From an uncultured Ignavibacteria bacterium (GTDB lineage Bacteria; Zixibacteria; MSB-5A5; JAABVY01; JAHJOQ01): DNA of 64,000 nt. Both the position numbers and the translations under genes were made by a program. Below the pieces are notes generated by a model. That model saw only the letters and a list, made by a program, of their open reading frames with translations. It had not been told where the DNA came from and did no database searches. Where the stretch lies: the NCBI GenBank assembly GCA_964415885.1, contig CAYQCE010000006.1, forward strand, positions 18,467-82,466, written 5' to 3'. This document shows positions 2,795 to 17,886 of the stretch, piece after piece (positions within the stretch are counted from its first letter, which is position 1; each line of letters opens with the position of its first letter).

Positions 2795-2796
2795 AA

Positions 2797-3444: not shown

Positions 3445-3481
3445 ATCGGCCTCTGACAGAGGCATTGGAGGATAGAGCGGG

Positions 3482-4819
3482 ATGCTGCAAGAACTTCCGG
3501 AAAAACAAGTCAAAGACGCCGGAATTGATGAAGGGATAAAGAAGCTAACACCTGAGAAGATCGCGGCTGTTGTCAATCGGGTGATGGACAAAGAGACTGC
3601 CGCGCGTATGAAGATATATCTCGATACCTGCGTGCATTGCGGCCTCTGCAACGAAGCGTGCCACACCTATATTTCACGCGGCAAGGACCCGCGCTTCTCC
3701 CCTGTCGGCAAGGTCAAGCAGACGATCTGGGAGATCCTGAAGCACAAGGGCAAAATCGAGCCGGAGAAGCTTCGCGATATGGCACGGATAGCGTTCACCG
3801 AATGCAATGTCTGCAGACGCTGCTCGATGTACTGCCCGTTCGGTATCGACATAGCGTATCTTCTCCTCACAATGCGTCGAATCTGCAATCTGCTCGGCGT
3901 CGTTCCGCAGTATCTTCAGGACACGACAAACAGCCATGCCGCCACTCTCAACCAGATGTGGGTCAACCAGGATGAATGGATTGACACACTCCAGTGGCAG
4001 GAAGAGGAGAACCAGCTCGAGATGCCGGATCTTCGCATTCCCCTCGAGAAAGAGGGCGCGGAGGTAATGTACTCGGTGATCGCGCCGGAGCCCAAAATCC
4101 TGGCGCAGTTGATCGGATATATGGCGCAGATTTTCACCGTGGCTGGAGTCGACTGGACAATGCCCGCCACTGACGGCTGGGATAACTCGAATATGGCGAT
4201 GTATTCCGGCGACTTCGAGGTCATGGGGCGTGTTGAGCGCCTGCATTGGGAAACGGCCGCACGGTTGAAAGTCAAGAAGATCGTGATGGGCGAATGCGGA
4301 CACGCATTCCGTGGCGCTGTTTATGACGGTCCCCGCTGGCTCGGATGGAAATTCCCGCCGATCAAAATGGTCCATGCGATTGAGTTCTACTATGACCTCA
4401 TCAAGAGCGGGCGAATTAAGATCAGAGAGAAATACAAAGAGCACGTTACGATTCAGGATCCGTGCAACACGGTGCGAGGGCTCGGTCTGGGACAAAAGCT
4501 AAGGTATGTCGTAAATGCGACATGCGAGAATTTCACGGATGTCACCCCCCGTTTCGAGCACAATTACTGTTGCATGGCAGGCGGCGGGACAATCAACTGC
4601 GGACCGCCATGGAAGAGATCGCGAATGGTCTCGAATAAGGTCAAGGCCGAGCAATTCAAACGAACGGGCGCAGATATTATCATAACGCCCTGCCACAACT
4701 GCCATTCGGGAATCGAAGATATCGTCGGCTTCTACAACCTCGGGATGCATGTCAAGTTCATAAACGAGATTCTCGTTGAAGTGATGGAAATCCCGGAGCA
4801 TCTGAAGCCAGCATCATAA
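3482..4819 (+). CDS. hmcF: HmcF-like cytoplasmic Fe-S protein (HdrD/DsrK/GlpC-like, CCG domains)
   Basis: 445 aa with two ferredoxin-type CxxCxxCxxxCP motifs (CVHCGLCNEACH, CNVCRRCSMYCPFG) and two CCG-type Cys-rich domains (CCMAGGGT, PCHNCH). Confidence 0.7.
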   Translation: MLQELPEKQVKDAGIDEGIKKLTPEKIAAVVNRVMDKETAARMKIYLDTCVHCGLCNEACHTYISRGKDPRFSPVGKVKQTIWEILKHKGKIEPEKLRDMARIAFTECNVCRRCSMYCPFGIDIAYLLLTMRRICNLLGVVPQYLQDTTNSHAATLNQMWVNQDEWIDTLQWQEEENQLEMPDLRIPLEKEGAEVMYSVIAPEPKILAQLIGYMAQIFTVAGVDWTMPATDGWDNSNMAMYSGDFEVMGRVERLHWETAARLKVKKIVMGECGHAFRGAVYDGPRWLGWKFPPIKMVHAIEFYYDLIKSGRIKIREKYKEHVTIQDPCNTVRGLGLGQKLRYVVNATCENFTDVTPRFEHNYCCMAGGGTINCGPPWKRSRMVSNKVKAEQFKRTGADIIITPCHNCHSGIEDIVGFYNLGMHVKFINEILVEVMEIPEHLKPAS

Positions 4820-4832
4820 GGTACGACCGGAT

Positions 4833-6377
4833 ATGACGAGAACGATAGCAAGGACAGCAGCGGGATATGGGATTCTTCTTGGAGTCCTCATTATAGCATC
4901 CGGCTTCCTGACCGCATGCGGTGAGACGCAGGCGAATACCCCTGAGTATAGACCGGACGCGATTTCGATCGACGCCATGTCTGTGTTCGGACCGCTCGAC
5001 AGAGCACCGGTACCGTTCGGACACGACAAACACACGAAAGCGCTCGAGCCGGAGGGTAAGGACTGCGGGTACTGCCATCCCAAACGGGATGACGGCACAC
5101 TGTCGCTGAAGTTCATGCGGGTCGAAAATACGAATTACGATGAAGTGATGAGTTTATATCATGACAACTGCATCGACTGTCACAAGGAGATGGAAGAGAG
5201 CTTGAAGAAGCAGCTTCCGATCACCTGCGGCGAGTGTCATCAGCGAGACCCGAAGTTCGTTTCGAACGCTGTTCCGATGCAGATGGATAAGTCGCTTCAT
5301 TATCGGCATATTGCAGCGGTAAACGACAGTTGCAGCCAATGTCATCACGAATATGACGAGGTTGGTGACAGCCTGTATTACGTCAAAAATGAGGAGAGAT
5401 CGTGCCGAGACTGCCATCTCGATGCCACGGTCGATAATCGAATCTCGTTTCGTCTCGCCGCACACGAACAGTGCATTTCCTGCCACCGCGATCGCGACAA
5501 GGGATTCGTGATGTGCGGCGGATGTCACGATCCGGCGACACGGGCTGAGATCGAAGTGGTCGACGACCCGCCGAGACTCGATATCGGACAGGATGAGTTC
5601 ATGCTGGTTGCGGCAGCGGAAAGCGAACGTAACCAGACCAAGCTCGGTTCGGTACCGTTCTCGCACATCGGACACGAGCAGTCCCATGACAACTGCCGCG
5701 TTTGCCATCATGTCCGGATGGATCCGTGCACAGAGTGCCACACTCTCGATGGCGGCGAGAAATCCGGCGGAGTTCGTTTGCAGCGCGCGATGCACGACAT
5801 GAACTCCGAGCATTCCTGCGTGGGATGTCACGAACAGCAGAAGGAGAATCCGGAATGCGCATCGTGCCATTTCATGATCGAGAAAGGCTCCCTCTCGGAG
5901 CATGCATGCGAGATATGTCATTCCGGGCCGAAACCGAATATGCTCGCGCAGGTTGGGGATCGATACAACTCGATCGACCAGTTTACTCCGAAGCCGTCCG
6001 AGATGAAACTGACATTTTCTGAGGCTCAGATTCCCGATACAGTCACTATCAGCATACTCTCGGATCAATACTATCCGGCGAAATTCCCCCACAGACAGAT
6101 TGTGTACAATCTGCTGGGGCATATAAATGACAATAAGGTTGCGAAGTACTTCCACGGCCACGAAGATCTGGTGTGCCAGGGTTGCCACCATCACAGTCCG
6201 GTCGGCGTGGAGCCGCCGCTTTGCGAGAGCTGTCACGGCGAGCCGTTCGACGATTCGAAGCTGTTTACGCCGGGGCTCTTCGGAGCCTATCACCGGCAGT
6301 GTATCGGGTGTCATGAAAAGATGGCGATTAGCAAGGCAACCGATTGTGAGAAATGCCATAAGAAGCGAGATATATAG
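4833..6377 (+). CDS. hmcA: 16-haem high-molecular-weight cytochrome c (HmcA), lipoprotein
   Basis: 514 aa with a lipobox (LTACG). I counted 16 CxxCH haem-binding motifs, from CGYCH through CEKCH. Confidence 0.85.
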   Translation: MTRTIARTAAGYGILLGVLIIASGFLTACGETQANTPEYRPDAISIDAMSVFGPLDRAPVPFGHDKHTKALEPEGKDCGYCHPKRDDGTLSLKFMRVENTNYDEVMSLYHDNCIDCHKEMEESLKKQLPITCGECHQRDPKFVSNAVPMQMDKSLHYRHIAAVNDSCSQCHHEYDEVGDSLYYVKNEERSCRDCHLDATVDNRISFRLAAHEQCISCHRDRDKGFVMCGGCHDPATRAEIEVVDDPPRLDIGQDEFMLVAAAESERNQTKLGSVPFSHIGHEQSHDNCRVCHHVRMDPCTECHTLDGGEKSGGVRLQRAMHDMNSEHSCVGCHEQQKENPECASCHFMIEKGSLSEHACEICHSGPKPNMLAQVGDRYNSIDQFTPKPSEMKLTFSEAQIPDTVTISILSDQYYPAKFPHRQIVYNLLGHINDNKVAKYFHGHEDLVCQGCHHHSPVGVEPPLCESCHGEPFDDSKLFTPGLFGAYHRQCIGCHEKMAISKATDCEKCHKKRDI

Positions 6378-6426
6378 TTGCAATCGAAAGCAACTTGCGC
6401 ATAGAGTTCGAAAGGTTGTGATATAG

Positions 6427-7491
6427 ATGAGCGTGTCTCGCAGGAGATTCCTTCAGGTGCTCGCTGCCGCATCCGCGGGAGCGGCAACAACAAAAACGGG
6501 TCAGGCCGCGCACGGCGTCTTTTCGGGATATCCCGAGAGCTACGGCGTCCTGCACGACACCACCCTGTGCATCGGCTGCAGATCGTGCGAGCAGGCCTGC
6601 AACGAGGTCAATGACCTCCCTGAGCAGGACAAGCCGTTCGATGATCTTTCGGTCCTTGAAGAGAAGCGCCGCACCGATGCGACCCGATATACTGTTGTTA
6701 ACAGATACAAGACATCGGACACGGATCGCCCGATTGTCAATCGCAAGAACCAGTGCAATCACTGTCTTGAGCCGGCGTGTGCGTCATCCTGCTTCGTCGG
6801 CGCATTCACGAAGACAGCGCAGGGTTCGGTGATCTACGATGAGAGCGTCTGCGTAGGCTGCAGGTATTGCCTGATAGCGTGCCCGTTCGACATCCCGACT
6901 TTTGAATACGATGATGCCACCTCGCCAAGGGTTCAGAAGTGCACGCTCTGTCATCCGCGTCTTCTCGAAGGCAAACTCCCGGGATGCGTGGAAGCCTGCC
7001 CGATGGAGGCATTGACATTCGGCAAACGTATCGATCTGATTACCATTGCTCGCGAGCGAATCCGGAAGTACCCGGAGCGCTATGTGGATCACATTTACGG
7101 CGAGTATGAGATGGGCGGCACGAGCTGGCTCTATATCACAAGCGCAGATGACATCAACGAGATCGGCCTGAGGGACGATCTCGGCAGGACACCTGCTCCG
7201 GAATTCACTTCCGGCGCGCTCTTGATGGTCCCGATTGCGATCGGAATCTGGCCGGTGCTCCTCGGTGGAATTCACAAGATAAGTGAGCGCAAGGCGAAGA
7301 TGGCCGAACAGGAGAAGAAGGAAGCCGTTGCCAATGCTGTCTCCGAGACCGAAGAGGCGGCACAAGAAAAACTTTCCAAGCGCGAACAGGCGCTCGCTGA
7401 GCAGCGAGAGAAGGCTGTCAAGTCAGCCGTTGACAAGGCGCTCAAGGAGGCCGGGGTCGAGAAAAAGGATGACGGGGAGGAGTCGAAATGA
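6427..7491 (+). CDS. hmcB: HmcB-like Tat-exported 4Fe-4S ferredoxin subunit (NrfC/DmsB family) with C-terminal TM anchor
   Basis: Twin-arginine signal ([17 protein letters not shown]) and four Cys clusters ([42 protein letters not shown]...CVEACP). A TM helix sits near the C-terminus, followed by a charged tail. Confidence 0.8.
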
Positions 7492-8660
7492 ACGATTATC
7501 CCATGCCTAAGAAGCGGTCGATGTTCGGGCCTTTCAATATCATCGCCGGGATAATAATCCTCGTCGGCCTTTACCTGACCTTTAAGAGATTTACGGGCGG
7601 TCTCGGGGCGGTCTCGAATTTGAACGACAACACGGCCTGGGGCATCTGGATCGGATTCGACCTGCTGACAGGCGTCGCGCTCGCCGCGGGCGGGTATGTC
7701 ACTGCAGCAGCAGTGTACATCTTCGGGAAAAAAGAGTATCATTCAGCGGTCCGACCCGCAGTTCTGACAGGGTTCCTCGGCTACGCTATGGTCGTGTTGG
7801 CTCTTCTGTACGACGTCGGAAGACCGTGGCGTCTCCCCTATCCATTTTTCGTCAGTCAGGGCGTGACATCGATAATGTTCGAGGTAGGTGCGTGTGTTAT
7901 GCTCTACCTCACGGTTCTGTTCATCGAATTCTCACCGGCTGCAATGGAATGGCTCGGGATGAAGAAGGTGCGAAAGGTCGCAGTTGGGCTTACGATGCTC
8001 CTGACGGTCCTCGGAGTCGTTTTATCGACGCTTCACCAGTCATCGCTCGGCGCACTCTTCCTGATCGCGCCGTCCAAGCTCCATCCGCTCTGGTATTCAC
8101 CCTATCTGCCGGTGTTTTTCTTTGTATCCAGTATCGCGGCGGGACTTTCGATGGTGATCGTGGAATCGACGCTCGCGCACCGAAATTTCCACGATTTAAT
8201 GGACAAGCCGCATAACAGGGAACGCGATAAAATCACACTCGGATTCGGGCGTGCGGCATCACTGGTGCTCGCCGGCTATTCATCGATCAAAATTTTTGGT
8301 ATTGCCGCTGACAATAACTGGCATTATCTGCTGACCGACTACGGTTTGTGGTTCCTCGTGGAGCTGCTCGGATTTGTAATGCTGCCGAGCTTCCTGTTTG
8401 CGATGGGAGTTCGTGAGAAGAACTTGAAACTGATCCGTTTCACGGCGTTTCTGACCGTAATTGGAATAATGCTGAATCGCCTGAATGTGGGCCTCATAGC
8501 GTTCAACTACCATCTGCCGGAAGGCACGGGTTACACTCCACATTGGATGGAGATCGGTATCACTCTCTTCGTGATAACAGTCGGATTGGTGATTTACCGA
8601 TTCGTCGTAACGAGAATGCCGATCTTCTACGAGCACCCGGAATACAGGGAAGCTCACTGA
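7488..8660 (+). CDS. hmcC: HmcC-like integral membrane subunit (NrfD/PsrC family)
   Basis: 390 aa with about 10 TM helices. The ATGA start overlaps the hmcB stop, indicating translational coupling. Confidence 0.7.
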
Positions 8661-8673
8661 GCGAGGTGATATT

Positions 8674-8817
8674 ATGGAGAGCACGATACATACACTTCAA
8701 GAGTTCATGATTCGAACCAAGGGTATTGTCTACATTCTCGCCATCGGATACCTGATCGGTTTTACAGCCTTCTGGAAATTCCTCTTCGCAAGAGACAAGA
8801 GCGAGGACATCGAGTAG
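8674..8817 (+). CDS. small single-TM protein, HmcD-like (not in ORF track)
   Basis: ATG at 8674 lies 5 nt after GAGGTGA. The 47-aa product (MESTIHTLQEFMIRTKGIVYILAIGYLIGFTAFWKFLFARDKSEDIE) has one hydrophobic helix. The ORF sits between hmcC and the terminator, the same position and size as HmcD in Desulfovibrio. Confidence 0.35.
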   Translation: MESTIHTLQEFMIRTKGIVYILAIGYLIGFTAFWKFLFARDKSEDIE

Positions 8818-8846
8818 ATTATTCAACAGATGAGGGATAAATGAAA

Positions 8847-8876
8847 GGCCCCGCCAATCGGCGGGGCCTTTTCTTT
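8847..8876. terminator. bidirectional rho-independent terminator between convergent hmc operon and peptidase gene
   Basis: GGCCCCGCC-AATC-GGCGGGGCC forms a 9-bp GC stem. It is flanked by TTTTCTTT on the + strand and by TTTCATTT on the - strand (preceded by AAAG). Confidence 0.65.
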
Positions 8877-8923
8877 ATCGAGTCAGAGCCTGTTCTTATC
8901 TTATTCAGGCACGTTTGTTGACT

Positions 8924-11900
8924 CTACGGACAGTCGGCGCACGGCTCCGGACCACCGCTGAAGACATATGCTATCGTGTACACGATATCATCAATGTCTA
9001 CAGAGTCGTTGCAGTCTACATCTCCAGCTTCGACCGGCTCCGGTGCCGGACCGCTGCCGAAGACGTATTCGATTAGCATCACTACGTCATCAATGTCTAC
9101 AGCGAGGTTTCCGTCGCAGTCACCGCAAACATACTGCTGCTCCTCTTCAACGAGGAGATTGACCGGGATTGACCACGGGTTGTCCGGTGTATCCGGGTCA
9201 TTGGAGTAGATGTTCACAGCGCACGCGTATTCGCCGATATCGAGACCGAAGGTATTCACCCTGGCAGTGATAGTGTTCTCGCCCATCGGCTCAATAGTGC
9301 CGGATGTCGGGGTGAGAGTCAGCCATTGTGCCGGGGCCGAGAACTCGACCGCGAGATTGTCCTTCAGGTACGAGGTGTTGAACGCAACCGTAAGACCATC
9401 GTCACCGGCCTCGTTCTCAATACCGATTGTCGCGCTCTCATCGGCGTCAAAGCCGGACGCAACCGTCTGGTACTGGAACTTGATTCGGCCGCTGGCGTAG
9501 AGTATGATCTCGGCATTGATTACGTCGCCGGCAGACGCCTGGTATTCCGAATAGTCGACGAACTGGATCACCAGCCTGTTGCCATCGGAATGGTAGTACA
9601 CCTTGCTGGTGTTGTTGGAGTTGGTCGGATCGAGATCGTCCCAACACCAGGCGAGGATGTTGTTCGGCGGATCATCATCCGGCAATAGCGTATTGTTGCG
9701 GCTGTAGTAGCCTGCGTCGGGACCGAACCCGATAAATCCGTTCGAGGCTATATAGAGCTCGTCATACGAGACTCCGTAGTAGCTGAAACTGAATCCGATC
9801 GGAACCGGGCCGAAGTAGTTGTCGTCACCGAGACTGTCGGCGGCATCCCTGATCGGGACTTCCGTACCGACTGCCTGGACATCAATCCAGTCGAACACAG
9901 GTCCACCCGGCTCATCCGAATCAACCCAGATATAGCCGAAGTTATCTGGACCGCCTGCGTCACGCTCGACAGCCGGACCCTCTCGTGTATCCGGAGTGCC
10001 CTTGGGCAGATCCGGCAACTCTTCGACTTCGTAATCCTCAAGGTAGTTGTACGGCGAGGTGAACAGTTCCCCAATGGCTCCGCGGAATACCGGTACGCTC
10101 TGCACCGTGTAGTTCAGCGTCCCGGGGCCGCCATTCTGAACCGTGATCATCGCGGAAGCAGAATCTCCCTCGATCAACTGGAAATCAAACGAGGCCGGTG
10201 TCACAGCAATCGACGGGGCGAAGTCGACTCTGATATCGTCAACATACCAGTAGTCATCGCCAGCCGTATTTCCGTAGCTGTGTACTCGCAGCTGGAATGT
10301 CTCGTGAAGCGCGTCGCCGGTCAGAACGACCTCGACATACTCGAATGACATCATATCCTCGCCGCTACCGAGCTGTCTGCTCGCCTCGACCCATTCACCG
10401 GAGGAGTTCTGGTACTCGAATACGAGGTCTTCGCCGGTCTCAGGCGAATCACCGGGACCCTTACGCTCGTAGTAGTAGGTAAGCAGCGCGGCGTCCTGAC
10501 CAGTGAGATCTATGAGCTGAGATATGAGCGTATCACATCCGCCATCCAGAAGCAACGAATACGTTCCGCTCGGTGTATTGTAAGCGTTTGAGGCAATTGC
10601 TCCGCCGATGTTCACCATCCACTTGCTCATATCGAGCGTGGCTGTCGGGAACTGCTCCTCCCACGGCACTGACGCCGGGAAGCCGGCAGAGATCGCGCAG
10701 ATGAAGGCTCCGCCGGAGATACTCGGATCGCCGTTCGAACGAGCCATCACCATTATAGTATCTTCGGAATTGAGCGGCGTAGCAGCCGGAATCTCGACCT
10801 TCGCGATTATCATCGCGGAATCGAGCGGCTCTATTATGCCTGTGGATGTGATCTGGCTCGTCGCCGCCTCATCCCAGAAAGTGACGTTCCACTGCGCCAG
10901 AGAATCATACAGAGAGAACTGATCGGAATAGAGACCCTTATTCTTCACAAAGAGCGTGAACGTGGCCTCACCTTCGGCAGGACCATACTGCTCCTGGAAC
11001 GAAGGCATCACCTGCACCTCGTATGACGGCGGGTGACCGATGTAGATGTCATCCACGAACCAGTCATCGTAACTGCCCGCAGTACCAGTACTTGAGAAAC
11101 GGATTCTCATTCCTGCATGCATCGCACCAGCCGGAAGCTGTACGATATTCTCCTCGAACACAGTCATGTCCGGATCGGCACCCGGATGCGTATCGAGAGT
11201 GTGCCAGACTCCGTTGGAGTCGAGATACTCGACATCGAGATCATCGCCGGATTCCGGACTGTCGCCGTCGCCGGTCTGCTGGAAGTAGTACCGCAGTATT
11301 ACATTGCTCTCATTCCGGAGGTTGATAGCCTCGGATTCGAGAGCATCGCCGCCGCTCGGGTTGCCGTCGAGATTGATCGAGTACGGCGCCGACGGCTCAT
11401 CGATACCGCTGGTGCTGACTTCGGCACCACCGGCGTCCTCCCACTTGGTCATATCGAGATCGGCGGTGAGGAACGACTCGGTGAATGGAATCGGCCATGG
11501 CTGTCCCGCGGAAACGGATATGATGTCCGCTCCGGCGGCAAATGAGGGATCGCCGACAGATGTCGTAACGACGCGTATACTGTCGCTCTCACCTTCCCAG
11601 CTCGATGGAACCAGTACCTGTACCTGGAAATCGAATGTCTCATCTGCAGACAGCAGATCCGTCTGCGTTATCTCTGTAGTGCCCGTTGCATCCCAGACTG
11701 TCGTTGCCCAGTCCACATCCTCAACGCTGATCGAGTAGGTGTCGTCGAGGACACCGTCATTCGTCACCGTCAGAGTATAGGTCAGCGTGTCGCCAACCGG
11801 AGCGGTCTGACTCTGATAGCCCGGACCGAGCAGAAGACCGTAATCGATAACCGAGAACGAATAGACCTCGGTCGTATCCGCAAGCCCGTTCGTGGTCTTC

Positions 11901-14104
11901 GCGAAGAAGTAATAGTCGATCTGCGTACCGGGTGACTGAGCCGGAATGGTTCCGTAGAACTCATTGTCGCCGGCGCCCTCCTGCAGCAGATCGGCCATGT
12001 ATCCACCGCCGTCTATGCTGTAGTAGAGAAGAAGCGAATCGGTGTCCAGCGCCTCCTCGGTGTAGATCATACACTCGGCGGTATAGTCATTTGTGTAATC
12101 CTTGGTGTCGGTCAAAGGACTCGGCACGATAACCGCGAGGTCGGATGTCACAACTACGGCTTCCTCGACCGTCGCAAGGTTGTAGCCGGTGACGGTCAGA
12201 GTGATCGACTGACCAATCGGAAGAAGTCCCTCGATCGGTATTGACGCGGTGCCATCCGGACCGGTGTAAGCCGAACCAAAGAGTTCGCCGTTATGGTAAA
12301 GAGCGCACAGGGCACCTTCCTGGCCGACGACCTCGATATCATACGTGTCCATAGCGAAGAAAACCGCTCCGCCGTGGTTTACAGTGATCGCCTCGGGAAC
12401 GTCGGTCCTGACCTGAACCGACGGATCGCCGAAGATATGCCATGTGTTATACATTGACACACCACCGGAGCCGTTGATGTCGATCATCTTGCACGAACCG
12501 TTGAAACAGAGTCCGCCGTACGTGTTCATCTGTTCCTGAATCAGGAGGTGAACCACCTCGTCCTGGCCATCCATCGGAGGATTCCAGGACTGGTTGATCG
12601 ATGACATGTATGCACCGATCGCGCCGGTCGGGCTGGAACCGTTCGTGGCGCGCAACCATGCCTCACCGAAACATGTGTAACCGTCGAACTGACCGTTAAC
12701 GCATGCCACACTGATGATGAACGGCAGCATATTATCATTCACGAGGGCGTTCACATTACTGTTCGAGAAGCCGGAGGAACTCCAGGCGGTAGTCGAACCG
12801 TGTCCCGTGTAGTTTATGATACTGCGACCGTCATTGAGAGCGGCAGCAACCGCCGCAGAGCTCGCGGTCGGATCGTATATCTGGTCGACATACGTGTAAG
12901 TGTAAGAGAACAGCGAATCCCGAATGTAATCGAGGTGCTCATCGTCGTACTCACCGCCGTTGTGTCCCGGACCCTGATTGGACCCGACGCCGGTGCCCTT
13001 GTGGAACCAGCTTCCAGCGAGAGGATTCTTCTCGTACGTGATCGTACGGTCTACCTGCGTTGTCACCTGGGTGCCGTTCTCCGCGGAGAAACGCCCGACG
13101 AAAAGATCCGGGTAGTTATCGGTCGTCATAAGAGCGTATGACGGGTCAGATGATCCACCGGAGGCGTATGGTGTCGCTACCTGTGCGGCGTCTCCAACCA
13201 GAAGGACATAGCCGAGATCAGAAGTGTTATAGATGTTCTGAATGTACGACTTGATTGCGGTAGAATTGTTGCCGATATCAGATACGTTTACCAACGTGGT
13301 CGGAAGACCCTTCTGGTTCTTCCAGTTCACGAACGGAATCATCTCATCCATGAAATCAGCGTAGCAGATTACGAGGAGATCGCCCTCTTCCTGCACGGGC
13401 GTGTACTTGCCCTGGACGAAATCATAGTTGATGAAACGACTCTCGTAGAGGTTATCGAATTCCGGTAGCAGCGTGAAATCGCTCTGCCGGTTCTGGAACA
13501 CGTTGATCTCGCCTGCACCGGCAGCGACAACTTCAACGGTTACCGAAGTATAGACGCGGAGCATGTTCTCGTCAGGCTTAACCTGGAACGGAAGGATCTC
13601 CACGACCGCGCCACGGTAGTCCCTCAGGATATAGGGACTTCCCAGTGAAACTGTGTTGGTCGGATAGAACTCGTTCGAGCTGTAGACGGGACCGAACGCG
13701 TAGGGAACGTCCTCGGGATTCACTGTTCTGAGCAGATTACCCTTGGACGGCACCACCGGAGTATTCGCTATGTCGACAAAATCCGTCGACAGAACGCGAA
13801 TGTCCATCTTGGCGTTGTCGGGAATGATGATACTCCGGCATATTTTCGGAAGCTCGGGTTCGGACTCGTTAAGAAGGATTCCCTCTCTATTGAGGGCAAT
13901 TCTGTAGTAAGTCTGGCCGTTGATATCCACGGCTTCTTTCTCGAAACCCCCAACTTCGAATCGAATGACAGTCCGAATGTCGTTCGACTCTTCAACCGTT
14001 ACTACGACGTCTTCTCCAAAGGCCCTGAGGTCGACATGCTCTCCATATGTCAACGCAGAAAGCGCAAGAAGAAGAACGACAGACAGAAGCACTCTCCTAT
14101 GCAT
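8924..14104 (-). CDS. giant secreted peptidase C25 (gingipain-like cysteine protease) with C-terminal dockerin-like Ca-binding module
   Basis: 1726 aa. An N-terminal signal peptide (MHRRVLLSVVLLLALSALTYG) precedes a propeptide-like region. The C25 catalytic region has a NYTGHGS...W His motif and an ISVACVNGQF Cys motif. About 1000 aa of beta-rich repeats follow. The C-terminus carries paired DxDxDG-type repeats (GDCDGNLAVDIDDVVMLIEYVFG ... GDVDCNDSVDIDDIVYTIAYVFSG) typical of dockerin type I. Confidence 0.75.
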   Translation of the reverse strand: MHRRVLLSVVLLLALSALTYGEHVDLRAFGEDVVVTVEESNDIRTVIRFEVGGFEKEAVDINGQTYYRIALNREGILLNESEPELPKICRSIIIPDNAKMDIRVLSTDFVDIANTPVVPSKGNLLRTVNPEDVPYAFGPVYSSNEFYPTNTVSLGSPYILRDYRGAVVEILPFQVKPDENMLRVYTSVTVEVVAAGAGEINVFQNRQSDFTLLPEFDNLYESRFINYDFVQGKYTPVQEEGDLLVICYADFMDEMIPFVNWKNQKGLPTTLVNVSDIGNNSTAIKSYIQNIYNTSDLGYVLLVGDAAQVATPYASGGSSDPSYALMTTDNYPDLFVGRFSAENGTQVTTQVDRTITYEKNPLAGSWFHKGTGVGSNQGPGHNGGEYDDEHLDYIRDSLFSYTYTYVDQIYDPTASSAAVAAALNDGRSIINYTGHGSTTAWSSSGFSNSNVNALVNDNMLPFIISVACVNGQFDGYTCFGEAWLRATNGSSPTGAIGAYMSSINQSWNPPMDGQDEVVHLLIQEQMNTYGGLCFNGSCKMIDINGSGGVSMYNTWHIFGDPSVQVRTDVPEAITVNHGGAVFFAMDTYDIEVVGQEGALCALYHNGELFGSAYTGPDGTASIPIEGLLPIGQSITLTVTGYNLATVEEAVVVTSDLAVIVPSPLTDTKDYTNDYTAECMIYTEEALDTDSLLLYYSIDGGGYMADLLQEGAGDNEFYGTIPAQSPGTQIDYYFFAKTTNGLADTTEVYSFSVIDYGLLLGPGYQSQTAPVGDTLTYTLTVTNDGVLDDTYSISVEDVDWATTVWDATGTTEITQTDLLSADETFDFQVQVLVPSSWEGESDSIRVVTTSVGDPSFAAGADIISVSAGQPWPIPFTESFLTADLDMTKWEDAGGAEVSTSGIDEPSAPYSINLDGNPSGGDALESEAINLRNESNVILRYYFQQTGDGDSPESGDDLDVEYLDSNGVWHTLDTHPGADPDMTVFEENIVQLPAGAMHAGMRIRFSSTGTAGSYDDWFVDDIYIGHPPSYEVQVMPSFQEQYGPAEGEATFTLFVKNKGLYSDQFSLYDSLAQWNVTFWDEAATSQITSTGIIEPLDSAMIIAKVEIPAATPLNSEDTIMVMARSNGDPSISGGAFICAISAGFPASVPWEEQFPTATLDMSKWMVNIGGAIASNAYNTPSGTYSLLLDGGCDTLISQLIDLTGQDAALLTYYYERKGPGDSPETGEDLVFEYQNSSGEWVEASRQLGSGEDMMSFEYVEVVLTGDALHETFQLRVHSYGNTAGDDYWYVDDIRVDFAPSIAVTPASFDFQLIEGDSASAMITVQNGGPGTLNYTVQSVPVFRGAIGELFTSPYNYLEDYEVEELPDLPKGTPDTREGPAVERDAGGPDNFGYIWVDSDEPGGPVFDWIDVQAVGTEVPIRDAADSLGDDNYFGPVPIGFSFSYYGVSYDELYIASNGFIGFGPDAGYYSRNNTLLPDDDPPNNILAWCWDDLDPTNSNNTSKVYYHSDGNRLVIQFVDYSEYQASAGDVINAEIILYASGRIKFQYQTVASGFDADESATIGIENEAGDDGLTVAFNTSYLKDNLAVEFSAPAQWLTLTPTSGTIEPMGENTITARVNTFGLDIGEYACAVNIYSNDPDTPDNPWSIPVNLLVEEEQQYVCGDCDGNLAVDIDDVVMLIEYVFGSGPAPEPVEAGDVDCNDSVDIDDIVYTIAYVFSGGPEPCADCP

Positions 14105-14510
14105 GACGCTCCTCTCGTAAATGGATTGAGTGATTTGAAGTACTTGTAATTTTTATTTTTCCCGTAATGAGAACAAAACAGTAGAATACCAGGCCCGTAT
14201 ATACTTCCCGTAATATAATATCATCCATCAATTTGGCAAGGTAAAACATGAGTGCGAGAGTCGATGCAAACACGCGGGTGTGGGTGTAGCCTGGTGCCAC
14301 AAATCCTCCGATGACATGCGCAAAACCGGCGAGACCGCGTCCCGGTCGAATCCTATTCGACAACTGAAAAGGCACGAAAGCGCAGCCCGCCTCTAAGACA
14401 TTGCAAAGCATTAGCTTACGAAGCAGGGCGGGATTACGTCGCTCCGCCGGTACACATTGTCTTATAGAAGACTACGAAGTATACCATACACTCTATTTGC
14501 AGCAAGAAGA

Positions 14511-14544
14511 ACGAGGCCGATCCATTTTTGTGAATCGGCCTCGT
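14511..14544 (-). terminator. candidate terminator downstream of the serpin gene
   Basis: A perfect 11-bp stem ACGAGGCCGAT/ATCGGCCTCGT with a 12-nt loop lies 30 nt 3' of the serpin stop. The T-run after it on the - strand is weak (TCTTCTTGCT). Confidence 0.4.
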
Positions 14545-14575
14545 AAATCATCGAGATCTGAATTGAACGGATAAC

Positions 14576-15802
14576 TCAGAAAACGGGTTCCTCGACTTTC
14601 CCGATAAAGAGGATTGAGTTCGAATTTGATTCCCAGATCGCGAACAGGAAGGGATGATCGGCAATGAAGATCGAATGCGGGCTCGAAGTTATCCCCATCT
14701 CCACCGATGTTACTGCGGCGGCCTCGGTGCCTTCCTCGTCGATGCGCACGAACGACTTATGTTTGACATCCGTTATCGCGAGACCCGTAGTATCGCTCAT
14801 GCCTCTGAAATTCGCTAACGGCGTGAAGGCTATCCCCATACCCATTGAGGCGAGAATCTGATTCAGGCTCTTCTCATACTCAAATTTGAGTTTCGGAAAA
14901 CCGAGAGTGATCTCCTCTTCCGCAAACGAGCTCATCAGGTTGTCCCACATCAAATCATCGAGAGTAGCCGCAAGTTCTGTGGGCGAGTCCTGCTTTGGCA
15001 GGATTGCAATGAGGTTATAGTGCTTATAGCCGTATGGCAGTTTCACAGCCTTCAGTGCATCATTCTCGAAATACTGCACATCCACCTTGTGCTTCGACAT
15101 CATCTGGCACTGGATCGTGGAACCGTCGGAGAGATGGAATAGACCGTTGTGAGTATTCTCAGGATCGAACGGTTCGGTCCAGAGAGCGTTGAAATAGACC
15201 GCGTTAATGAGGTACATCACAGCATAATCCGGGATCCGGTTAAGTATCGAGGTTATCTTCCCGTGAGTTTTCTCATCGACCCAGGAGTTGATTACGCCAG
15301 GAGCTTTGGGATCAGTGAAATCGAGTTTCTGTACCTCGGCATCATAGTACTCCCGAAGTCTCCCGAGAAACTCGTCCTTGACATCAAAATCGTCTCGGGG
15401 CCACACGGAGTTCGCGATCTCCAAAGTTACCGACGGATCGATTGTCATCAGGAATTCAGCAAGCGTCTCGTAGTTACGATTGATCTCTTCGTCGGTCAAT
15501 CCCGCAAGCTCGAGTGTCTGGACGAGTGCCTCGCGCGTTTCACCCTGGGCGCCGTTCAGCACCATTCCAAATGCAGTCGAAACAGACAGGGGTGAGATAA
15601 ACACATTTGCATTCCGGTCATCCCGACAGATCGCATCGAACAGCTTGAAACCGAATGCGTTGCCGCTCTCGGAGAGAGTCATCTCGGCCTGAGTCAGAGC
15701 GCGTACCGACGGTACAGGATCAATCGGTGATTCCGATTCACCAGAGCATGCTACCAAAAGCAGCATAGTTGTTAGTATGGCACAGATTGAACGTGACATC
15801 AT
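14576..15802 (-). CDS. serpin (serine/cysteine protease inhibitor), lipoprotein
   Basis: 408 aa with a lipobox (LLVACSG). It has a serpin hinge and C-terminal signature (EEGTEAAAVTSV ... FIADHPFLFAIWE). The C-terminal region also matches the typical serpin NAVYFNALWTEPF motif. Confidence 0.85.
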   Translation of the reverse strand: MMSRSICAILTTMLLLVACSGESESPIDPVPSVRALTQAEMTLSESGNAFGFKLFDAICRDDRNANVFISPLSVSTAFGMVLNGAQGETREALVQTLELAGLTDEEINRNYETLAEFLMTIDPSVTLEIANSVWPRDDFDVKDEFLGRLREYYDAEVQKLDFTDPKAPGVINSWVDEKTHGKITSILNRIPDYAVMYLINAVYFNALWTEPFDPENTHNGLFHLSDGSTIQCQMMSKHKVDVQYFENDALKAVKLPYGYKHYNLIAILPKQDSPTELAATLDDLMWDNLMSSFAEEEITLGFPKLKFEYEKSLNQILASMGMGIAFTPLANFRGMSDTTGLAITDVKHKSFVRIDEEGTEAAAVTSVEMGITSSPHSIFIADHPFLFAIWESNSNSILFIGKVEEPVF

Positions 15803-15943
15803 ATCCTCCCTTGTTTTTTGCCTTGCCGCGAAATAGGAACTGTAAAAGGGACGAGCCTGTCCCCGTTCTGTTGAATTCCAATCACAATCAAGAGATGCCG
15901 CTCATCAACTGATTCATAGTCAAGTCTCAAAGAAATACGAAGG

Positions 15944-16330
15944 TCAAATTTTGCCGATCTCTTCCACGGTCCAGTCATCTCCGACCCAGACCCCGTAGAT
16001 ATCGGCCTTGAGATGCCATGACCGGACCTCCTCCATCGCCTTTCTGACATGCTCGAGGTGCATCTCCTTGTCGCCCGGATTGCCCGCGCAGTCGTGGTGC
16101 CCGACGATCACGATTGCCTTGGATCCGTGCTTCTCGACTGAAATAAGGACTCTCGTTTTGATCGAGTCGATCAGTTGAGGCTCGCCTCTGGCGATTATGC
16201 CATCCGGGCCCGGCTCGGTGACCGAGTCGACATAGTCGACACCGAATCTCTCTTTCATCCACTCAATTACGGGAAGCTGTGTACGGCCATCCATGCAGTT
16301 GATGGCTGTCGCGAAAGTGCCTTGTGCCAT
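15944..16330 (-). CDS. hypothetical protein with beta-carbonic-anhydrase-like Cys/His motifs
   Basis: 128 aa containing CMDGR and HHDCAG motifs that resemble the CxDxR / HxxCxG zinc ligands of beta-CA. It is too short for a canonical beta-CA, so it remains tentative. Confidence 0.3.
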   Translation of the reverse strand: MAQGTFATAINCMDGRTQLPVIEWMKERFGVDYVDSVTEPGPDGIIARGEPQLIDSIKTRVLISVEKHGSKAIVIVGHHDCAGNPGDKEMHLEHVRKAMEEVRSWHLKADIYGVWVGDDWTVEEIGKI

Positions 16331-16450
16331 TGAAGAAATCCTTTGCGAAGATTATCCTTCCATTTGACACAATAACGCAATTGCGACATGTTAAGGCAAG
16401 AACTTAGGCAAGAACTGTAATGATCTGTTCTATTATGAGGAAAGAGGTCT

Positions 16451-16735
16451 TCAGGATTTCTTCTTGGACTTATCGATCATTTTCTTCATCGCGCCTGTCT
16501 TGTCCCACTTCTCAGATAGATAGAAGCCGAGCGCTCGGTCGACTATTTCCTGTACGGGCTTGTCCTCGAAGTGAGCTATGACCTTCAGCTTGCCAAGGTA
16601 CTCTTCGCGAATCCAGACAGCTTTGCGCTGCCATGTTTTCCCGGCCTTGTCGATGCGGACGTCCTTGACATACACTGACTTCTCGGATTTGGGGTCTTCC
16701 TTCGAATTGCCTTTGACCTTATCGATTATACCCAT
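16451..16735 (-). CDS. small lysine-rich hypothetical protein
   Basis: 94-aa ORF with good coding periodicity and no recognisable family. Confidence 0.4.
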   Translation of the reverse strand: MGIIDKVKGNSKEDPKSEKSVYVKDVRIDKAGKTWQRKAVWIREEYLGKLKVIAHFEDKPVQEIVDRALGFYLSEKWDKTGAMKKMIDKSKKKS

Positions 16736-16902
16736 AAAATCCTCCTCATTTAGACTATCGGCCGTGATCGGTTCAATCTACACAGGATTGAGCTTAAAAC
16801 CGTTCTCACCTGAAACATAGTGCCCCAAAACCGTAATCATCTGCATCAGTCTTCCGATAATAGAGATGAATTAGATCATGTTACGATTTGGAGGGAGAAA
16901 CC

Positions 16903-17886
16903 ATGTCAACACCTGCGAAATGCCTTATCCTGTTCACAGCATTCGCGACAATATTCGTCGTCGGTTGCGGAAGCTCCGATGATCCGACCTCTCCGGGTGG
17001 ACGAAACTCGGCAAGTTTCCAGAACTACGAGCAGTACATCCGAGAAATCGCGCCGCCGGAGTTCACCCAGATTGCCGCATCACCCCGGGCATACGGCGAT
17101 TGGACCGAAGGGGAATATCCGCTTCTCGCGAAAGTGTTCAGCGAGAACGAACCGATGTCGCTATACAGCAATACCGAAACACTCGACAACCTTATCGACG
17201 AGCTGAATGAGCATGTGGGCACGGATGAATCCGGCAAGTACGTTAAACTCATTGACACAGACAGCACTCTCACCCTCACTGAGTTGACATCGAACCTGCC
17301 GATTCCGACGCATCTACAATCGCTGTTCGGAATGTCGTCTGTTAATCTCGATTATCTTGCCGTTCTGGAATACGAGAAGTTGCCAACATCGGTAAGGAAG
17401 ATCGGATTCTCTCAGACCGACGAAACCGAGGAATTGCTGCTGTTCTACAAAGCGCCCTATGGCTCACAGACCACAACCCACCTGTACTATGCTTTCGTCG
17501 ACAAGACCATCGACTCGATAGTGATTATCGGAGCAGAGAGCAAGGCCGAGACAGCGTCACCGTCGAACGTGACGGCAAACTGGAGCTACAGAATCAGCAC
17601 TGTCAATGAGACGGATTTCGATTATATCATGGCATGGGGCGGTATAGAAGCCGATTTCATGGGCAAGGTCATCGGCGGCGGCAATAAAGACGTCAAATTC
17701 GCTTTGCGATACCAGGGCTTTAATCCGTCAACTGCAGCCGAGCCGCATGAGGACATGACACAGATGTTCGGGCCAAACTTCTCGGATGAGGGCACACTCA
17801 CTACCGGCTTTGACTACTTTATCTCCGCGGACCGATTCCTTCAGCGGAGCGATCTTGCATATACTTTGATTGAAATATCATTCTGA
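16903..17886 (+). CDS. hypothetical lipoprotein
   Basis: ATG at 16903 lies 7 nt after GGAGGGAG. The product has a signal peptide plus lipobox (FVVGCGSS) and no recognisable family. Confidence 0.5.
   Translation: MSTPAKCLILFTAFATIFVVGCGSSDDPTSPGGRNSASFQNYEQYIREIAPPEFTQIAASPRAYGDWTEGEYPLLAKVFSENEPMSLYSNTETLDNLIDELNEHVGTDESGKYVKLIDTDSTLTLTELTSNLPIPTHLQSLFGMSSVNLDYLAVLEYEKLPTSVRKIGFSQTDETEELLLFYKAPYGSQTTTHLYYAFVDKTIDSIVIIGAESKAETASPSNVTANWSYRISTVNETDFDYIMAWGGIEADFMGKVIGGGNKDVKFALRYQGFNPSTAAEPHEDMTQMFGPNFSDEGTLTTGFDYFISADRFLQRSDLAYTLIEISF

What the first reader, a model, noticed from the sequence alone, without database searches (positions are those of the whole stretch)
8924..15802. Giant dockerin-bearing gingipain-like (C25) protease encoded next to a lipoprotein serpin
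A 1726-aa secreted protein combines a C25 cysteine-peptidase catalytic domain (His in NYTGHGS, Cys in ISVACVNGQF) with about 1000 aa of beta-repeat domains and a C-terminal dockerin-type double Ca-binding repeat. That implies tethering to a cohesin-bearing scaffold or cell-surface partner. Directly upstream, in the same orientation, is a lipoprotein serpin with an intact hinge (GTEAAAVTSV) and the FxADHPFLFxI signature. A protease and protease-inhibitor gene pair suggests either self-protection or control of the secreted protease, or a defensive inhibitor targeting foreign proteases. Bacterial serpins inhibiting C25-type enzymes are not well documented.
Basis: partly seen in the sequence, partly recalled or inferred. 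Interest (0 to 1): 0.6.

Follow-up and report, generated by a model that had tools for sequence, protein, structure and literature searches.

The report
Zixibacterial dockerin-tagged gingipain beside a serpin
A giant secreted gingipain-like protease with a dockerin tail and a neighbouring surface serpin are both real, but they are ordinary members of large Zixibacteria families, are transcribed separately, and do not look like an enzyme-inhibitor pair.

Summary
Both genes exist exactly as described. The 1726-aa protein is an RgpB-type (Arg-gingipain) C25 zymogen. It has a signal peptide, an inhibitory prodomain, a catalytic domain with an invariant His/Cys dyad and Arg-type S1 pocket, Ig and jelly-roll modules, and a genuine dockerin. 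It is one of at least 30 full-length orthologues (49-94% identity) in Zixibacteria MAGs. The serpin is a consensus member of a very large family of miropin-like bacterial lipoprotein serpins.

The proposed protease-inhibitor coupling is poorly supported:
- A strong conserved terminator follows the serpin.
- The protease has its own promoter-like element, conserved even in serpin-less loci.
- The adjacency occurs only in the window's clade: 4 of about 25 informative orthologous loci, and none of 3 other serpin loci.
- The reactive-centre loop (VEMGI-T|SSP) has no Arg or Lys. Its closest solved relative, miropin, needs a basic residue to trap gingipains and does not inhibit RgpB.

The dockerin inference fares better. 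The module tags 157 ORFs in the fetched Zixibacteria loci. Cohesin-type modules occur in dockerin-bearing proteins, including one in a MAG that also carries an orthologue of this protease. No cohesin could be shown for this genome. Verdict: a new member of known kinds, of modest interest.

The parts
8924..14104 (-). Gene for the 1726-aa secreted gingipain-R-like C25 protease zymogen
   Evidence: ORF; Pfam; RgpB E 4e-85; at least 30 full-length orthologues in Zixibacteria
14042..14104 (-). Sec signal peptide (aa 1-21, no lipobox)
   Evidence: Read directly from the sequence
13406..14041 (-). N-terminal prodomain (aa 22-233), including invariant Arg126 (13727..13729), which aligns with RgpB pro-Arg126
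   Evidence: Propeptide_C25 1.4e-24; 4ief_A 1.3e-26; R126 in 32/32 orthologues; role of Arg126 from PMC4357240
12410..13405 (-). C25 catalytic domain (aa 234-565): His435 (12800..12802), Cys468 (12701..12703), S1 Asp387 (12944..12946), Gln505, Trp507, Met511
   Evidence: Alignment to 1cvr/4ief_B; all listed residues invariant in 32 orthologues
12155..12397 (-). Ig-like domain that follows the catalytic domain, as in gingipains (aa 570-650)
   Evidence: Peptidase_C25_C 2.3e-7; aligned with the RgpB IgSF domain
11843..12151 (-). Additional beta-sandwich domain (aa 652-754)
   Evidence: AF2 model with pLDDT 86.7, all-beta
11024..11842 (-). Repeat unit 1 (aa 755-1027): DUF11/CARDB-like Ig domain plus a jelly-roll (reelin subrepeat-B / CBM32-like)
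   Evidence: Pfam DUF11 and Reelin_subrepeat-B, both sub-threshold; Foldseek hits to VesC, the sialidase galactose-binding module and reelin
10211..11023 (-). Repeat unit 2 (aa 1028-1298), a tandem duplicate of unit 1
   Evidence: BLASTP of unit 1 against unit 2: 36% identity, E 1e-54
9365..10210 (-). Ig-like (ASH/PapD-type) domain, a disordered linker, and a NIDO-like domain (aa 1299-1580)
   Evidence: Pfam NIDO and BACON_2, weak; AF2 model; Foldseek hits to ASH/PapD-like domains
9140..9352 (-). BACON/ASH-like Ig domain (aa 1585-1655)
   Evidence: Pfam BACON_2 and Cep192_D6
8927..9133 (-). C-terminal dockerin (aa 1658-1726): two EF-hand loop-helix segments bracketed by conserved Cys1660 and Cys1725
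   Evidence: Pfam 22.0 bits against GA 22.9; profile matches only dockerins in the PDB; predicted three-helix segment
14212..14239 (-). Promoter-like element TTGCCA-N16-TATATT, about 110 nt upstream of the protease ATG
   Evidence: Scan gives 10/12 matches; conserved in L081, L001, L003 and in serpin-less loci L006, L007, L008, L010, L014, L020, L029
14511..14544 (-). Intrinsic-terminator-like hairpin (14-bp stem followed by a T-rich tail), starting 32 nt after the serpin stop codon
   Evidence: folding energy -33 kcal/mol, z = -5.6; hairpin kept, with base changes on both arms, in L081 and L001
14576..15802 (-). Gene for the 408-aa miropin-like lipoprotein serpin (lipobox LVAC, Cys19)
   Evidence: PF00079 7.9e-106; miropin 5ncs 2.3e-79; 7246 homologues at E<=1e-20 among the candidates scored
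14669..14737 (-). Serpin hinge and reactive-centre loop (aa 356-378: EEGTEAAAVTSVEMGI-T|SSPHSI). P2 is Ile371, P1 is Thr372, P1' is Ser373. No Arg or Lys.
   Evidence: Alignment to miropin; P numbering follows miropin (Lys368 = P2); family column counts

Best explanation
These are two separately transcribed extracytoplasmic genes of a Zixibacteria MAG that happen to be neighbours in one clade.

(1) The protease. It is a roughly 190-kDa secreted zymogen of an Arg-specific gingipain-R-type C25 cysteine protease. It is exported by Sec. Its own N-terminal prodomain keeps it latent, with Arg126 predicted to occupy the S1 pocket as in pro-RgpB. After prodomain removal it acts as an extracellular protein-degrading enzyme. 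The Ig, jelly-roll and NIDO-like modules probably bind substrates or glycans. The C-terminal dockerin is the phylum's common C-terminal tag on secreted proteins. It most likely docks the enzyme, Ca2+-dependently, onto cohesin-type modules carried by other dockerin-bearing proteins, giving a surface or extracellular multi-enzyme assembly.

(2) The serpin. It is a miropin-like, lipid-anchored inhibitory serpin with the family-consensus hydrophobic/Thr reactive loop. It is predicted to trap elastase-, chymotrypsin- or subtilisin-like serine proteases, either foreign or self-made, at the cell surface. It is not predicted to trap the Arg-specific neighbour.

Shown: domain identities, conserved residues, the terminator and promoter elements, and the distribution of the adjacency. 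Inferred: Arg specificity, prodomain latency, cohesin docking, and the serpin's target class.
For: - The protease is RgpB-type: 289 bits to RgpB against 80 bits to Kgp.
- The RgpB S1 residues named in PMC4357240 (Asp163, Gly210, Gly212, Gln282, Trp284) correspond to Asp387, Gly434, Gly436, Gln505 and Trp507. All are invariant in 32 orthologues.
- Prodomain Arg126 is invariant and aligns with the RgpB autoprocessing and inhibitory Arg126.
- Separate transcription: a 14-bp terminator hairpin follows the serpin and is kept in L081 and L001. The promoter-like TTGCCAAA-N14-TTATATT lies upstream of the protease, also in seven serpin-less orthologous loci.
- Adjacency: a serpin lies next to the protease only in the window, L081, L001 and L003. 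It is absent from about 21 other orthologous loci that have at least 1.6 kb of upstream sequence. Three other serpin loci (L082, L083, L084) have no C25 gene.
- The loop from P6 to P3' (VEMGITSSP) equals the family consensus and has no Lys or Arg.
- Miropin inhibits Kgp only through Lys368 and does not inhibit RgpB. An engineered Arg variant does inhibit Rgp.
- The dockerin is real and is present at the C-terminus of 157 ORFs in the fetched loci.
- Cohesin-type modules occur in L078, L083, L087 and P0241. Their profile matches ten cohesin structures, best E 1.5e-6.
- Precedent: a dockerin-bearing C25 peptidase plus a cohesin scaffoldin in Cloacimonadota (PMC8542988).
Against: - The serpin-C25 pair survives in L003 although both flanks differ. 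That hints at selection for linkage.
- In L001 the protease-proximal serpin (P0124) carries Arg exactly at the miropin Lys368 position.
- Arg specificity and prodomain latency are inferred from homology only. The predicted pro/mature junction is Lys233|Tyr234, not Arg.
- No cohesin has been shown in this genome. The cohesin-type modules found are single modules inside dockerin proteins, not a multi-cohesin scaffoldin. Pfam scores them below its threshold.
- How a 190-kDa protein crosses the outer membrane is unknown.
- Promoter and terminator calls are consensus matches in a phylum whose promoters are uncharacterised.
Confidence: 0.6

Rival explanations
1. One reading: the serpin is the cognate inhibitor of the neighbouring C25 protease, acting by cross-class suicide inhibition to protect the cell or to time activation.
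For: - Same orientation and immediate adjacency.
- The adjacency is kept in L081, L001 and L003, the last with different flanks.
- Serpin inhibition of a C25 enzyme is mechanistically possible: miropin inhibits Kgp.
- P0124, next to the orthologue in L001, has an Arg in its loop.
Against: - There is no Arg or Lys anywhere from P15 to P10', while the S1 pocket is RgpB-type. Wild-type miropin, which lacks an Arg, does not inhibit RgpB.
- A terminator follows the serpin, and the protease's promoter is independent and conserved.
- The pair is absent from about 21 orthologous loci and from 3 of 3 other serpin loci.
- The loop is the generic family consensus, and 31% of family members carry Lys or Arg regardless of context.
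- The protease already has an inhibitory prodomain.
Confidence: 0.1
2. There is an indirect functional link. The serpin does not inhibit the C25 enzyme but shields it, together with other surface or dockerin-assembled proteins, from serine proteases. Those could be competitors' enzymes or the cell's own dockerin-tagged S8 subtilisins. The two genes would then belong to one 'extracellular proteolysis' toolkit and be kept close.
For: - The pair is retained across a rearranged context in L003.
- Dockerin-tagged S8 peptidases occur next to an orthologue in L002.
- Miropin is a surface-exposed broad-range inhibitor.
- Cellulosomal serpins in Clostridia are a known analogue (my own knowledge, not checked here).
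Against: - There is no co-transcription signal.
- The adjacency is missing in most orthologous loci.
- The serpin has no dockerin.
- The L003 serpin belongs to a different serpin subclade, so the two adjacencies may have arisen independently or by chance.
Confidence: 0.2
3. The dockerin-like module is not a cohesin-binding device here. It would instead be a Ca2+-stabilised C-terminal sorting, secretion or cell-envelope-anchoring tag, analogous in role to a T9SS C-terminal domain.
For: - The module sits at the extreme C-terminus of 157 very diverse ORFs.
- C25 paralogues carry a T9SS C-terminal domain (PF18962) instead.
- Conserved Cys residues bracket the module.
- Cohesin-type modules appear rare: only 2 metagenome loci and 1 protein-search hit.
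- Dockerin-like modules without cohesins are widespread (Peer et al. 2009, cited in PMC8542988).
Against: - Cohesin-type modules do exist in these lineages, and specifically in proteins that also carry this dockerin type.
- Both Ca-binding loops and both helices have canonical dockerin geometry.
Confidence: 0.25

Closest known systems
Gingipain R (RgpB) of Porphyromonas gingivalis (MEROPS C25; PDB 1CVR, 4IEF)
   Same: Same order of prodomain, catalytic domain and Ig-like domain. The His/Cys dyad is conserved, as are all the S1 residues that bind the P1 Arg and the prodomain Arg126.
   Different: There is no T9SS C-terminal domain. About 1070 extra residues follow: 2x(Ig + jelly-roll), a NIDO-like domain, an Ig domain and a dockerin. 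Glu152 is replaced by Gln377 (Q in 18 and E in 11 of 32 orthologues). The pro/mature junction is Lys-Tyr rather than Arg-Tyr. The host is an environmental Zixibacterium.
Miropin, the surface lipoprotein serpin of Tannerella forsythia (PDB 5NCS)
   Same: It is the best solved homologue (2.3e-79). The hinge EEGTEAAAVT is identical and the loop is in the same register (EMVKTSSP against EMGITSSP). Both have a lipoprotein signal.
   Different: P3-P2 is Gly-Ile instead of Val-Lys, so the Lys368 bait used against trypsin-like enzymes and Kgp is missing. No biochemical data exist for this serpin.
Dockerin-bearing C25 peptidase with a cohesin scaffoldin in Ca. Stygibacter (Cloacimonadota) (PMC8542988)
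   Same: A gingipain-like C25 peptidase and an S8 peptidase both carry C-terminal dockerins in a bacterium of the same broad group of phyla (my own taxonomic knowledge). A protein-degrading, cellulosome-like assembly was inferred there.
   Different: That study found a 3755-aa multi-cohesin scaffoldin with a T9SS C-terminal domain. Here only single cohesin-type modules embedded in dockerin proteins were found, all in related genomes and none in this one.
Clostridial cellulosome (type I cohesin-dockerin)
   Same: The duplicated 22-residue Ca-binding dockerin is present. The cohesin-type profile matches CipA and OlpB cohesins.
   Different: The cargo here is proteases and adhesin-like proteins rather than glycoside hydrolases. 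The host is presumably diderm (my own assumption). No scaffoldin was identified.
Operonic bacterial protease-inhibitor pairs (potempins with KLIKK proteases in T. forsythia; staphostatins with staphopains)
   Same: An inhibitor gene lies next to a secreted protease gene.
   Different: Those pairs are co-produced and matched in specificity. For potempins this comes from the introduction read; for staphostatins it is my own knowledge. Here there is a terminator between the genes, an independent promoter, and a loop that does not match the protease's specificity.

Membership tests
Peptidase family C25 (gingipain), RgpB subtype | Catalytic His then Cys dyad in a caspase-like fold | tested here: met
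   His435 and Cys468 align with RgpB His211 and Cys244 and are invariant in 32 orthologues. Pfam 1.4e-60.
Peptidase family C25 (gingipain), RgpB subtype | Arg-specific S1 pocket (Asp163, Gly210, Gly212, Gln282, Trp284) | tested here: met
   Asp387, Gly434, Gly436, Gln505 and Trp507 are all invariant. The residue list comes from PMC4357240. Kgp does not align an Asp at this position. Enzymatic specificity was not measured.
Peptidase family C25 (gingipain), RgpB subtype | N-terminal inhibitory prodomain with Arg126 | tested here: met
   Propeptide_C25 1.4e-24; 4ief_A 1.3e-26; Arg126 present in 32 of 32 orthologues.
Peptidase family C25 (gingipain), RgpB subtype | T9SS C-terminal sorting domain (as in P. 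gingivalis gingipains) | tested here: not met
   No PF18962 hit; the C-terminus is a dockerin. Some paralogues in the same phylum do carry PF18962.
PorU-type T9SS sortase | Full-length match to NF033707 | tested here: not met
   66 bits against a cut-off of 420. Only the shared C25 core matches.
Inhibitory serpin (MEROPS I4) | Serpin fold | tested here: met
   PF00079 7.9e-106 across the whole profile.
Inhibitory serpin (MEROPS I4) | Hinge with small residues from P15 to P9 (G-T-E-A-A-A-V) | tested here: met
   EEGTEAAAVT is identical to miropin. The columns from P17 to P8 are nearly invariant in 121 family members.
Inhibitory serpin (MEROPS I4) | Covalent complex with a target protease | not testable with these tools
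   Needs biochemistry.
Cognate inhibitor of an Arg-gingipain-type enzyme | Arg (or Lys) at or near P1 of the reactive loop | tested here: not met
   The loop GTEAAAVTSVEMGITSSPHSIFIAD has no Arg or Lys. The requirement comes from the miropin data.
Cognate inhibitor of an Arg-gingipain-type enzyme | Co-transcription or conserved linkage with the protease | tested here: not met
   A terminator and an independent conserved promoter separate the genes. The linkage appears in only 4 of about 25 loci.
Type I dockerin | Two tandem ~22-residue segments, each a 12-residue Ca2+-binding loop followed by a helix | tested here: met
   The loops DCDGNLAVDIDD and DVDCNDSVDIDD have Asp/Asn at positions 1, 3, 5, 9 and 12. 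Helices are predicted at 1671-1682 and 1704-1716. The profile matches only PDB dockerins.
Type I dockerin | Pfam PF00404 gathering score | tested here: inconclusive
   The window sequence scores 16.1 bits as part of the whole protein and 22.0 bits as an isolated module, against a cut-off of 22.9. Many orthologues carry a precomputed PF00404 hit.
Cohesin-dockerin (cellulosome-like) system | Cohesin-bearing partner encoded in the same genome | not testable with these tools
   Only 64 kb of this genome is available, and no cohesin lies in it. Cohesin-type modules were found in related genomes: L078 (same MAG as orthologue L006), L083, L087 and P0241.
Cohesin-dockerin (cellulosome-like) system | Scaffoldin with multiple cohesins and a cell-anchoring module | tested here: inconclusive
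   Only single cohesin-type modules flanked by dockerins were seen. The searches had limited reach.

The most novel reading that the evidence does not exclude
Zixibacteria may run a non-cellulosomal, protease-rich cohesin-dockerin assembly system. Hundreds of secreted proteins, including this giant Arg-gingipain-like enzyme, carry a Cys-bracketed C-terminal dockerin. Adaptor proteins carry dockerin-cohesin-dockerin or signal-peptide-cohesin-dockerin arrangements, which could link cargo into chains or lattices on the cell surface. Within the window's clade, a fast-evolving serpin locus upstream of the protease (loops VEMGITSSP, IGVGATGAM, VGFGRIGGP) may include variants, such as the Arg-bearing P0124 in L001, that do regulate the C25 enzyme.
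Probability: 0.3. Interest if true: 0.6.

Novelty: new member of a known kind. Interest (0 to 1): 0.33.

Why it matters
If the coupling were real, it would be a natural bacterial serpin/clan-CD protease regulatory pair. The evidence argues against that here. What remains useful falls into three points.
- RgpB-type gingipains, with S1 pocket and prodomain Arg intact, are widespread in an uncultured environmental phylum, fused to large binding arrays. This bears on how Zixibacteria degrade proteins in sediments.
- A dockerin tag is used on a very large and diverse secretome in this phylum.
- Cohesin-type modules are embedded in dockerin proteins there. This makes a protein-degrading, cellulosome-like assembly outside the Firmicutes directly testable.

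Tried and rejected
- PorU/T9SS sortase identity: rejected, 66 bits against a cut-off of 420.
- T9SS C-terminal domain on this protein: none found.
- Cohesin or a second dockerin in the window: none. I scanned ten large ORFs against Pfam and ran a six-frame dockerin-loop regex.
- Literature search for 'Zixibacteria' plus 'dockerin': 0 papers.
- Fold search of the C-terminal model (pLDDT 69): dominated by generic ASH/PapD Ig hits and uninformative for the NIDO-like and dockerin parts.
- Word-indexed protein search with the cohesin-type profile: only one hit, P0241. The metagenome scan gave only two loci. The abundance of cohesins therefore remains unknown.
- L072:1221-2006 as a cohesin: the Pfam hit was weak (17.7 bits) and nothing supported it in the PDB, so it was left aside.
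- Rfam on 8700..16500: only far-sub-threshold sRNA matches over the hairpin between the convergent genes.
- Looking up the exact serpin to identify the source assembly: this returned only a 2-kb Logan contig.
- P0124's loop Arg as evidence of specificity matching: discounted, because 37 of 121 family members carry Lys or Arg between P6 and P3' irrespective of context.

Full report
**Observation.** The window carries two ORFs on the minus strand: 8924..14104 (1726 aa) and, 471 nt upstream, 14576..15802 (408 aa). Pfam places Propeptide_C25 (33-195), Peptidase_C25 (244-564, 1.4e-60) and the gingipain Ig-like domain (570-648) in the large protein. It places a full-length Serpin domain (7.9e-106) in the small one.

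**Organism and family.** The protease has more than 3700 homologues among the candidates scored. The best are about 1720-aa proteins with the same architecture at 49-94% identity, and where named they are 'C25 family cysteine peptidase [Candidatus Zixiibacteriota]'. A genome scan returned 75 loci, mostly Zixibacteria MAGs. The exact protein is already in public collections, unnamed, on a 92.9-kb NCBI contig. This is one member of a large, already-annotated but uncharacterised family.

**The protease.** The catalytic region is much closer to Arg-gingipain RgpB (289 bits, E 4e-85) than to Lys-gingipain Kgp (80 bits).
- His435 and Cys468 align with the RgpB dyad.
- The residues that hydrogen-bond the P1 arginine in RgpB are Asp163, Gly210, Gly212, Gln282 and Trp284 (PMC4357240). 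They correspond to Asp387, Gly434, Gly436, Gln505 and Trp507, and all are invariant in 32 orthologues.
- The prodomain aligns with the RgpB prodomain (1.3e-26). It has an invariant Arg126 at the position of the RgpB autoprocessing Arg126.

I therefore infer an Arg-specific enzyme held latent by its own prodomain. Two small deviations exist. RgpB Glu152 is Gln377 here (Q or E across the family). The predicted pro/mature junction is Lys233|Tyr234 rather than Arg|Tyr.

**Downstream domains.**
- A beta-sandwich occupies aa 652-754.
- It is followed by a tandem duplication, 755-1027 and 1028-1298 (36% identity, E 1e-54).
- An AF2 model of 652-1030 (pLDDT 86.7) shows Ig-like sandwiches plus a jelly-roll. 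Foldseek matches this jelly-roll to Vibrio VesC, the galactose-binding module of a sialidase, and reelin subrepeats. This agrees with weak Pfam hits to DUF11 and Reelin_subrepeat-B.
- An Ig domain, a disordered linker, a NIDO-like domain and a BACON/ASH-type Ig domain follow.

**The dockerin.** The last 70 residues contain two canonical 12-residue EF-hand loops, each followed by a helix. As a single sequence the module falls just below Pfam's threshold (22.0 against 22.9 bits). A profile of 20 orthologues matches only dockerins in the PDB (2e-11 to 1e-3).

An HMM of the module finds 157 ORFs in the fetched loci, almost always at the extreme C-terminus and often in runs of neighbouring genes. 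Two of these proteins have a roughly 155-aa module between two dockerins: a beta-helix protein in L078 and a Sortilin/BNR protein in L083. In L078 this module gives a sub-threshold Pfam Cohesin hit (21.7 bits). Together with relatives in L086, L087 and P0241, it gives a profile that matches ten cohesin structures and essentially nothing else (best 1.5e-6).

L078 comes from MAG Dive96_bin4.201, which also carries a 60% orthologue of this protease (L006). A dockerin-bearing C25 peptidase with a cohesin scaffoldin has been described in Cloacimonadota (PMC8542988). It could not be tested for this genome, and the 64-kb window has no cohesin or other dockerin.

**The serpin.** Its closest solved relative is miropin of Tannerella forsythia (2.3e-79), a surface lipoprotein serpin. 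The hinge is identical. The loop reads EMGI-T|SSP where miropin has EMVK-T|SSP, so P2 is Ile371 and P1 is Thr372 in miropin's numbering. The N-terminus has an LVAC lipobox.

The family is very large: 7246 hits at E<=1e-20 among the candidates scored, from Zixibacteria, KSB1, Bacteroidales and Chloroflexota. The window's residues from P6 to P3' equal the family consensus. There is no Arg or Lys anywhere in the loop.

**Is it a protease-inhibitor pair?** Four lines of evidence argue against it.
1. *Transcription.* A 14-bp-stem hairpin with a T-rich tail starts 32 nt after the serpin stop codon (-33 kcal/mol, z = -5.6). It is maintained, with base changes on both arms, in L081 and L001. A TTGCCAAA-N14-TTATATT element lies 110-160 nt upstream of the protease start. 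It is conserved in L081, L001 and L003, and also in seven orthologous loci that have no serpin.
2. *Distribution.* tblastn with the serpin against all fetched loci finds a serpin next to the orthologue only in L001 (76% protease identity, two tandem serpins), L003 (63%) and L081 (94%). About 21 other orthologous loci with enough flank have none. From the serpin side, three other loci (L082, L083, L084) have no C25 neighbour.
3. *Specificity.* Miropin inhibits Kgp by presenting Lys368 and does not inhibit RgpB. An engineered Arg variant does. A loop without any basic residue is a poor bait for an RgpB-type pocket.
4. *Redundancy.* The enzyme already has a prodomain inhibitor of its own.

Two points count in favour of some link. 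In L003 the pair persists although both flanks differ. However, that serpin belongs to another subclade, only 45-49% identical to the window's. In L001 the protease-proximal serpin P0124 has Arg at the miropin Lys368 position. However, 31% of family members have Lys or Arg in that stretch regardless of context. I put direct inhibition at about 0.1 and an indirect 'toolkit' link at about 0.2.

**Comparison and novelty.** The protease is an RgpB-type C25 member that lacks the T9SS C-terminal domain and has gained a long binding array and a dockerin. The serpin is a miropin-like member that lacks the basic P2. The dockerin-C25 combination has a published precedent in a related phylum. The claim that bacterial serpin inhibition of C25 enzymes is undocumented is superseded by the 2025 miropin-Kgp preprint. 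The finding as posed is a new member of known kinds. The more interesting by-product is the size of the Zixibacterial dockerin-tagged secretome and the dockerin-cohesin-dockerin adaptors.

**Verdict.** Interest is 0.33.

Noticed in passing
window 1529..8820 (+), convergent with the protease gene: An Hmc-like membrane redox complex operon. In order: a 421-aa ORF, a 215-aa NarI/HmcE-like protein, a 445-aa CCG-domain HmcF-like protein, a 514-aa multihaem cytochrome c3-type protein, a 354-aa 4Fe-4S protein, a 390-aa NrfD protein, and a roughly 48-aa DVU_0533 (HmcD-like) ORF. The Pfam assignments are taken from the syntenic locus L001; the ORF sizes match the window.
   Followed up: partly
84 fetched loci (for example L048, L040, L057, L035): The protease's C-terminal dockerin type is found on 157 ORFs of very different kinds: S8 and M14 peptidases, TSP3-repeat, PKD, cadherin-like and Sortilin/BNR proteins. 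It is nearly always at the extreme C-terminus and often on several adjacent genes. It behaves like a phylum-wide secretome tag.
   Followed up: partly
L078:959-2899(+), L083:7387-10575(-), L087:586-4953(+), P0241: Cohesin-type modules of about 155 aa are embedded in dockerin-bearing proteins, in dockerin-cohesin-dockerin or signal-peptide-cohesin-dockerin arrangements. Their five-sequence profile matches ten PDB cohesins (best 1.5e-6). Pfam scores them below threshold or misses them.
   Followed up: yes
window 14212..14239 (-) and the equivalent position in L001, L003, L006, L007, L008, L010, L014, L020, L029, L081: A conserved promoter-like motif, TTGCCAAA-N14-TTATATT, lies 110-160 nt upstream of orthologous C25 genes. 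A conserved GAGAGGAGCGT ribosome-binding region lies next to the ATG.
   Followed up: partly
L001 6931..9549 (two tandem serpins, P0123 and P0124): A tandem serpin duplication lies upstream of the 76% orthologue, and the two loops are strongly diverged (IGVGATGAM and VGFGRIGGP). The protease-proximal copy has Arg at the miropin Lys368 position. L084 has three tandem serpins.
   Followed up: partly
window 13403..13408 (aa 233-234) and 13436..13444 (aa 221-223, SRF here; RRF in the orthologue consensus): The predicted prodomain/mature junction is Lys|Tyr (Lys in 23 of 32 orthologues, Arg in 5 of 32), although the S1 pocket is Arg-type. The orthologue consensus has a conserved Arg-Arg-Phe 12 residues upstream (Ser-Arg-Phe in this protein), which could be the real autoprocessing site.
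   Followed up: no
window 57629..60934 (-): An 1101-aa tricorn-type S41 protease with PD40 beta-propeller, Tricorn_C1, PDZ_Tricorn and Peptidase_S41 domains.
   Followed up: no
window 16888..17886 (+): A 332-aa ORF whose N-terminus looks like a lipoprotein signal (FVVGCGS). It has no Pfam hit. Syntenic ORFs of the same size occur in L001 and L081.
   Followed up: no
window 8818..8885: A hairpin-forming stretch lies between the convergent HmcD-like ORF and the end of the protease gene. It gives only far-sub-threshold Rfam sRNA matches and is probably a bidirectional terminator.
   Followed up: no
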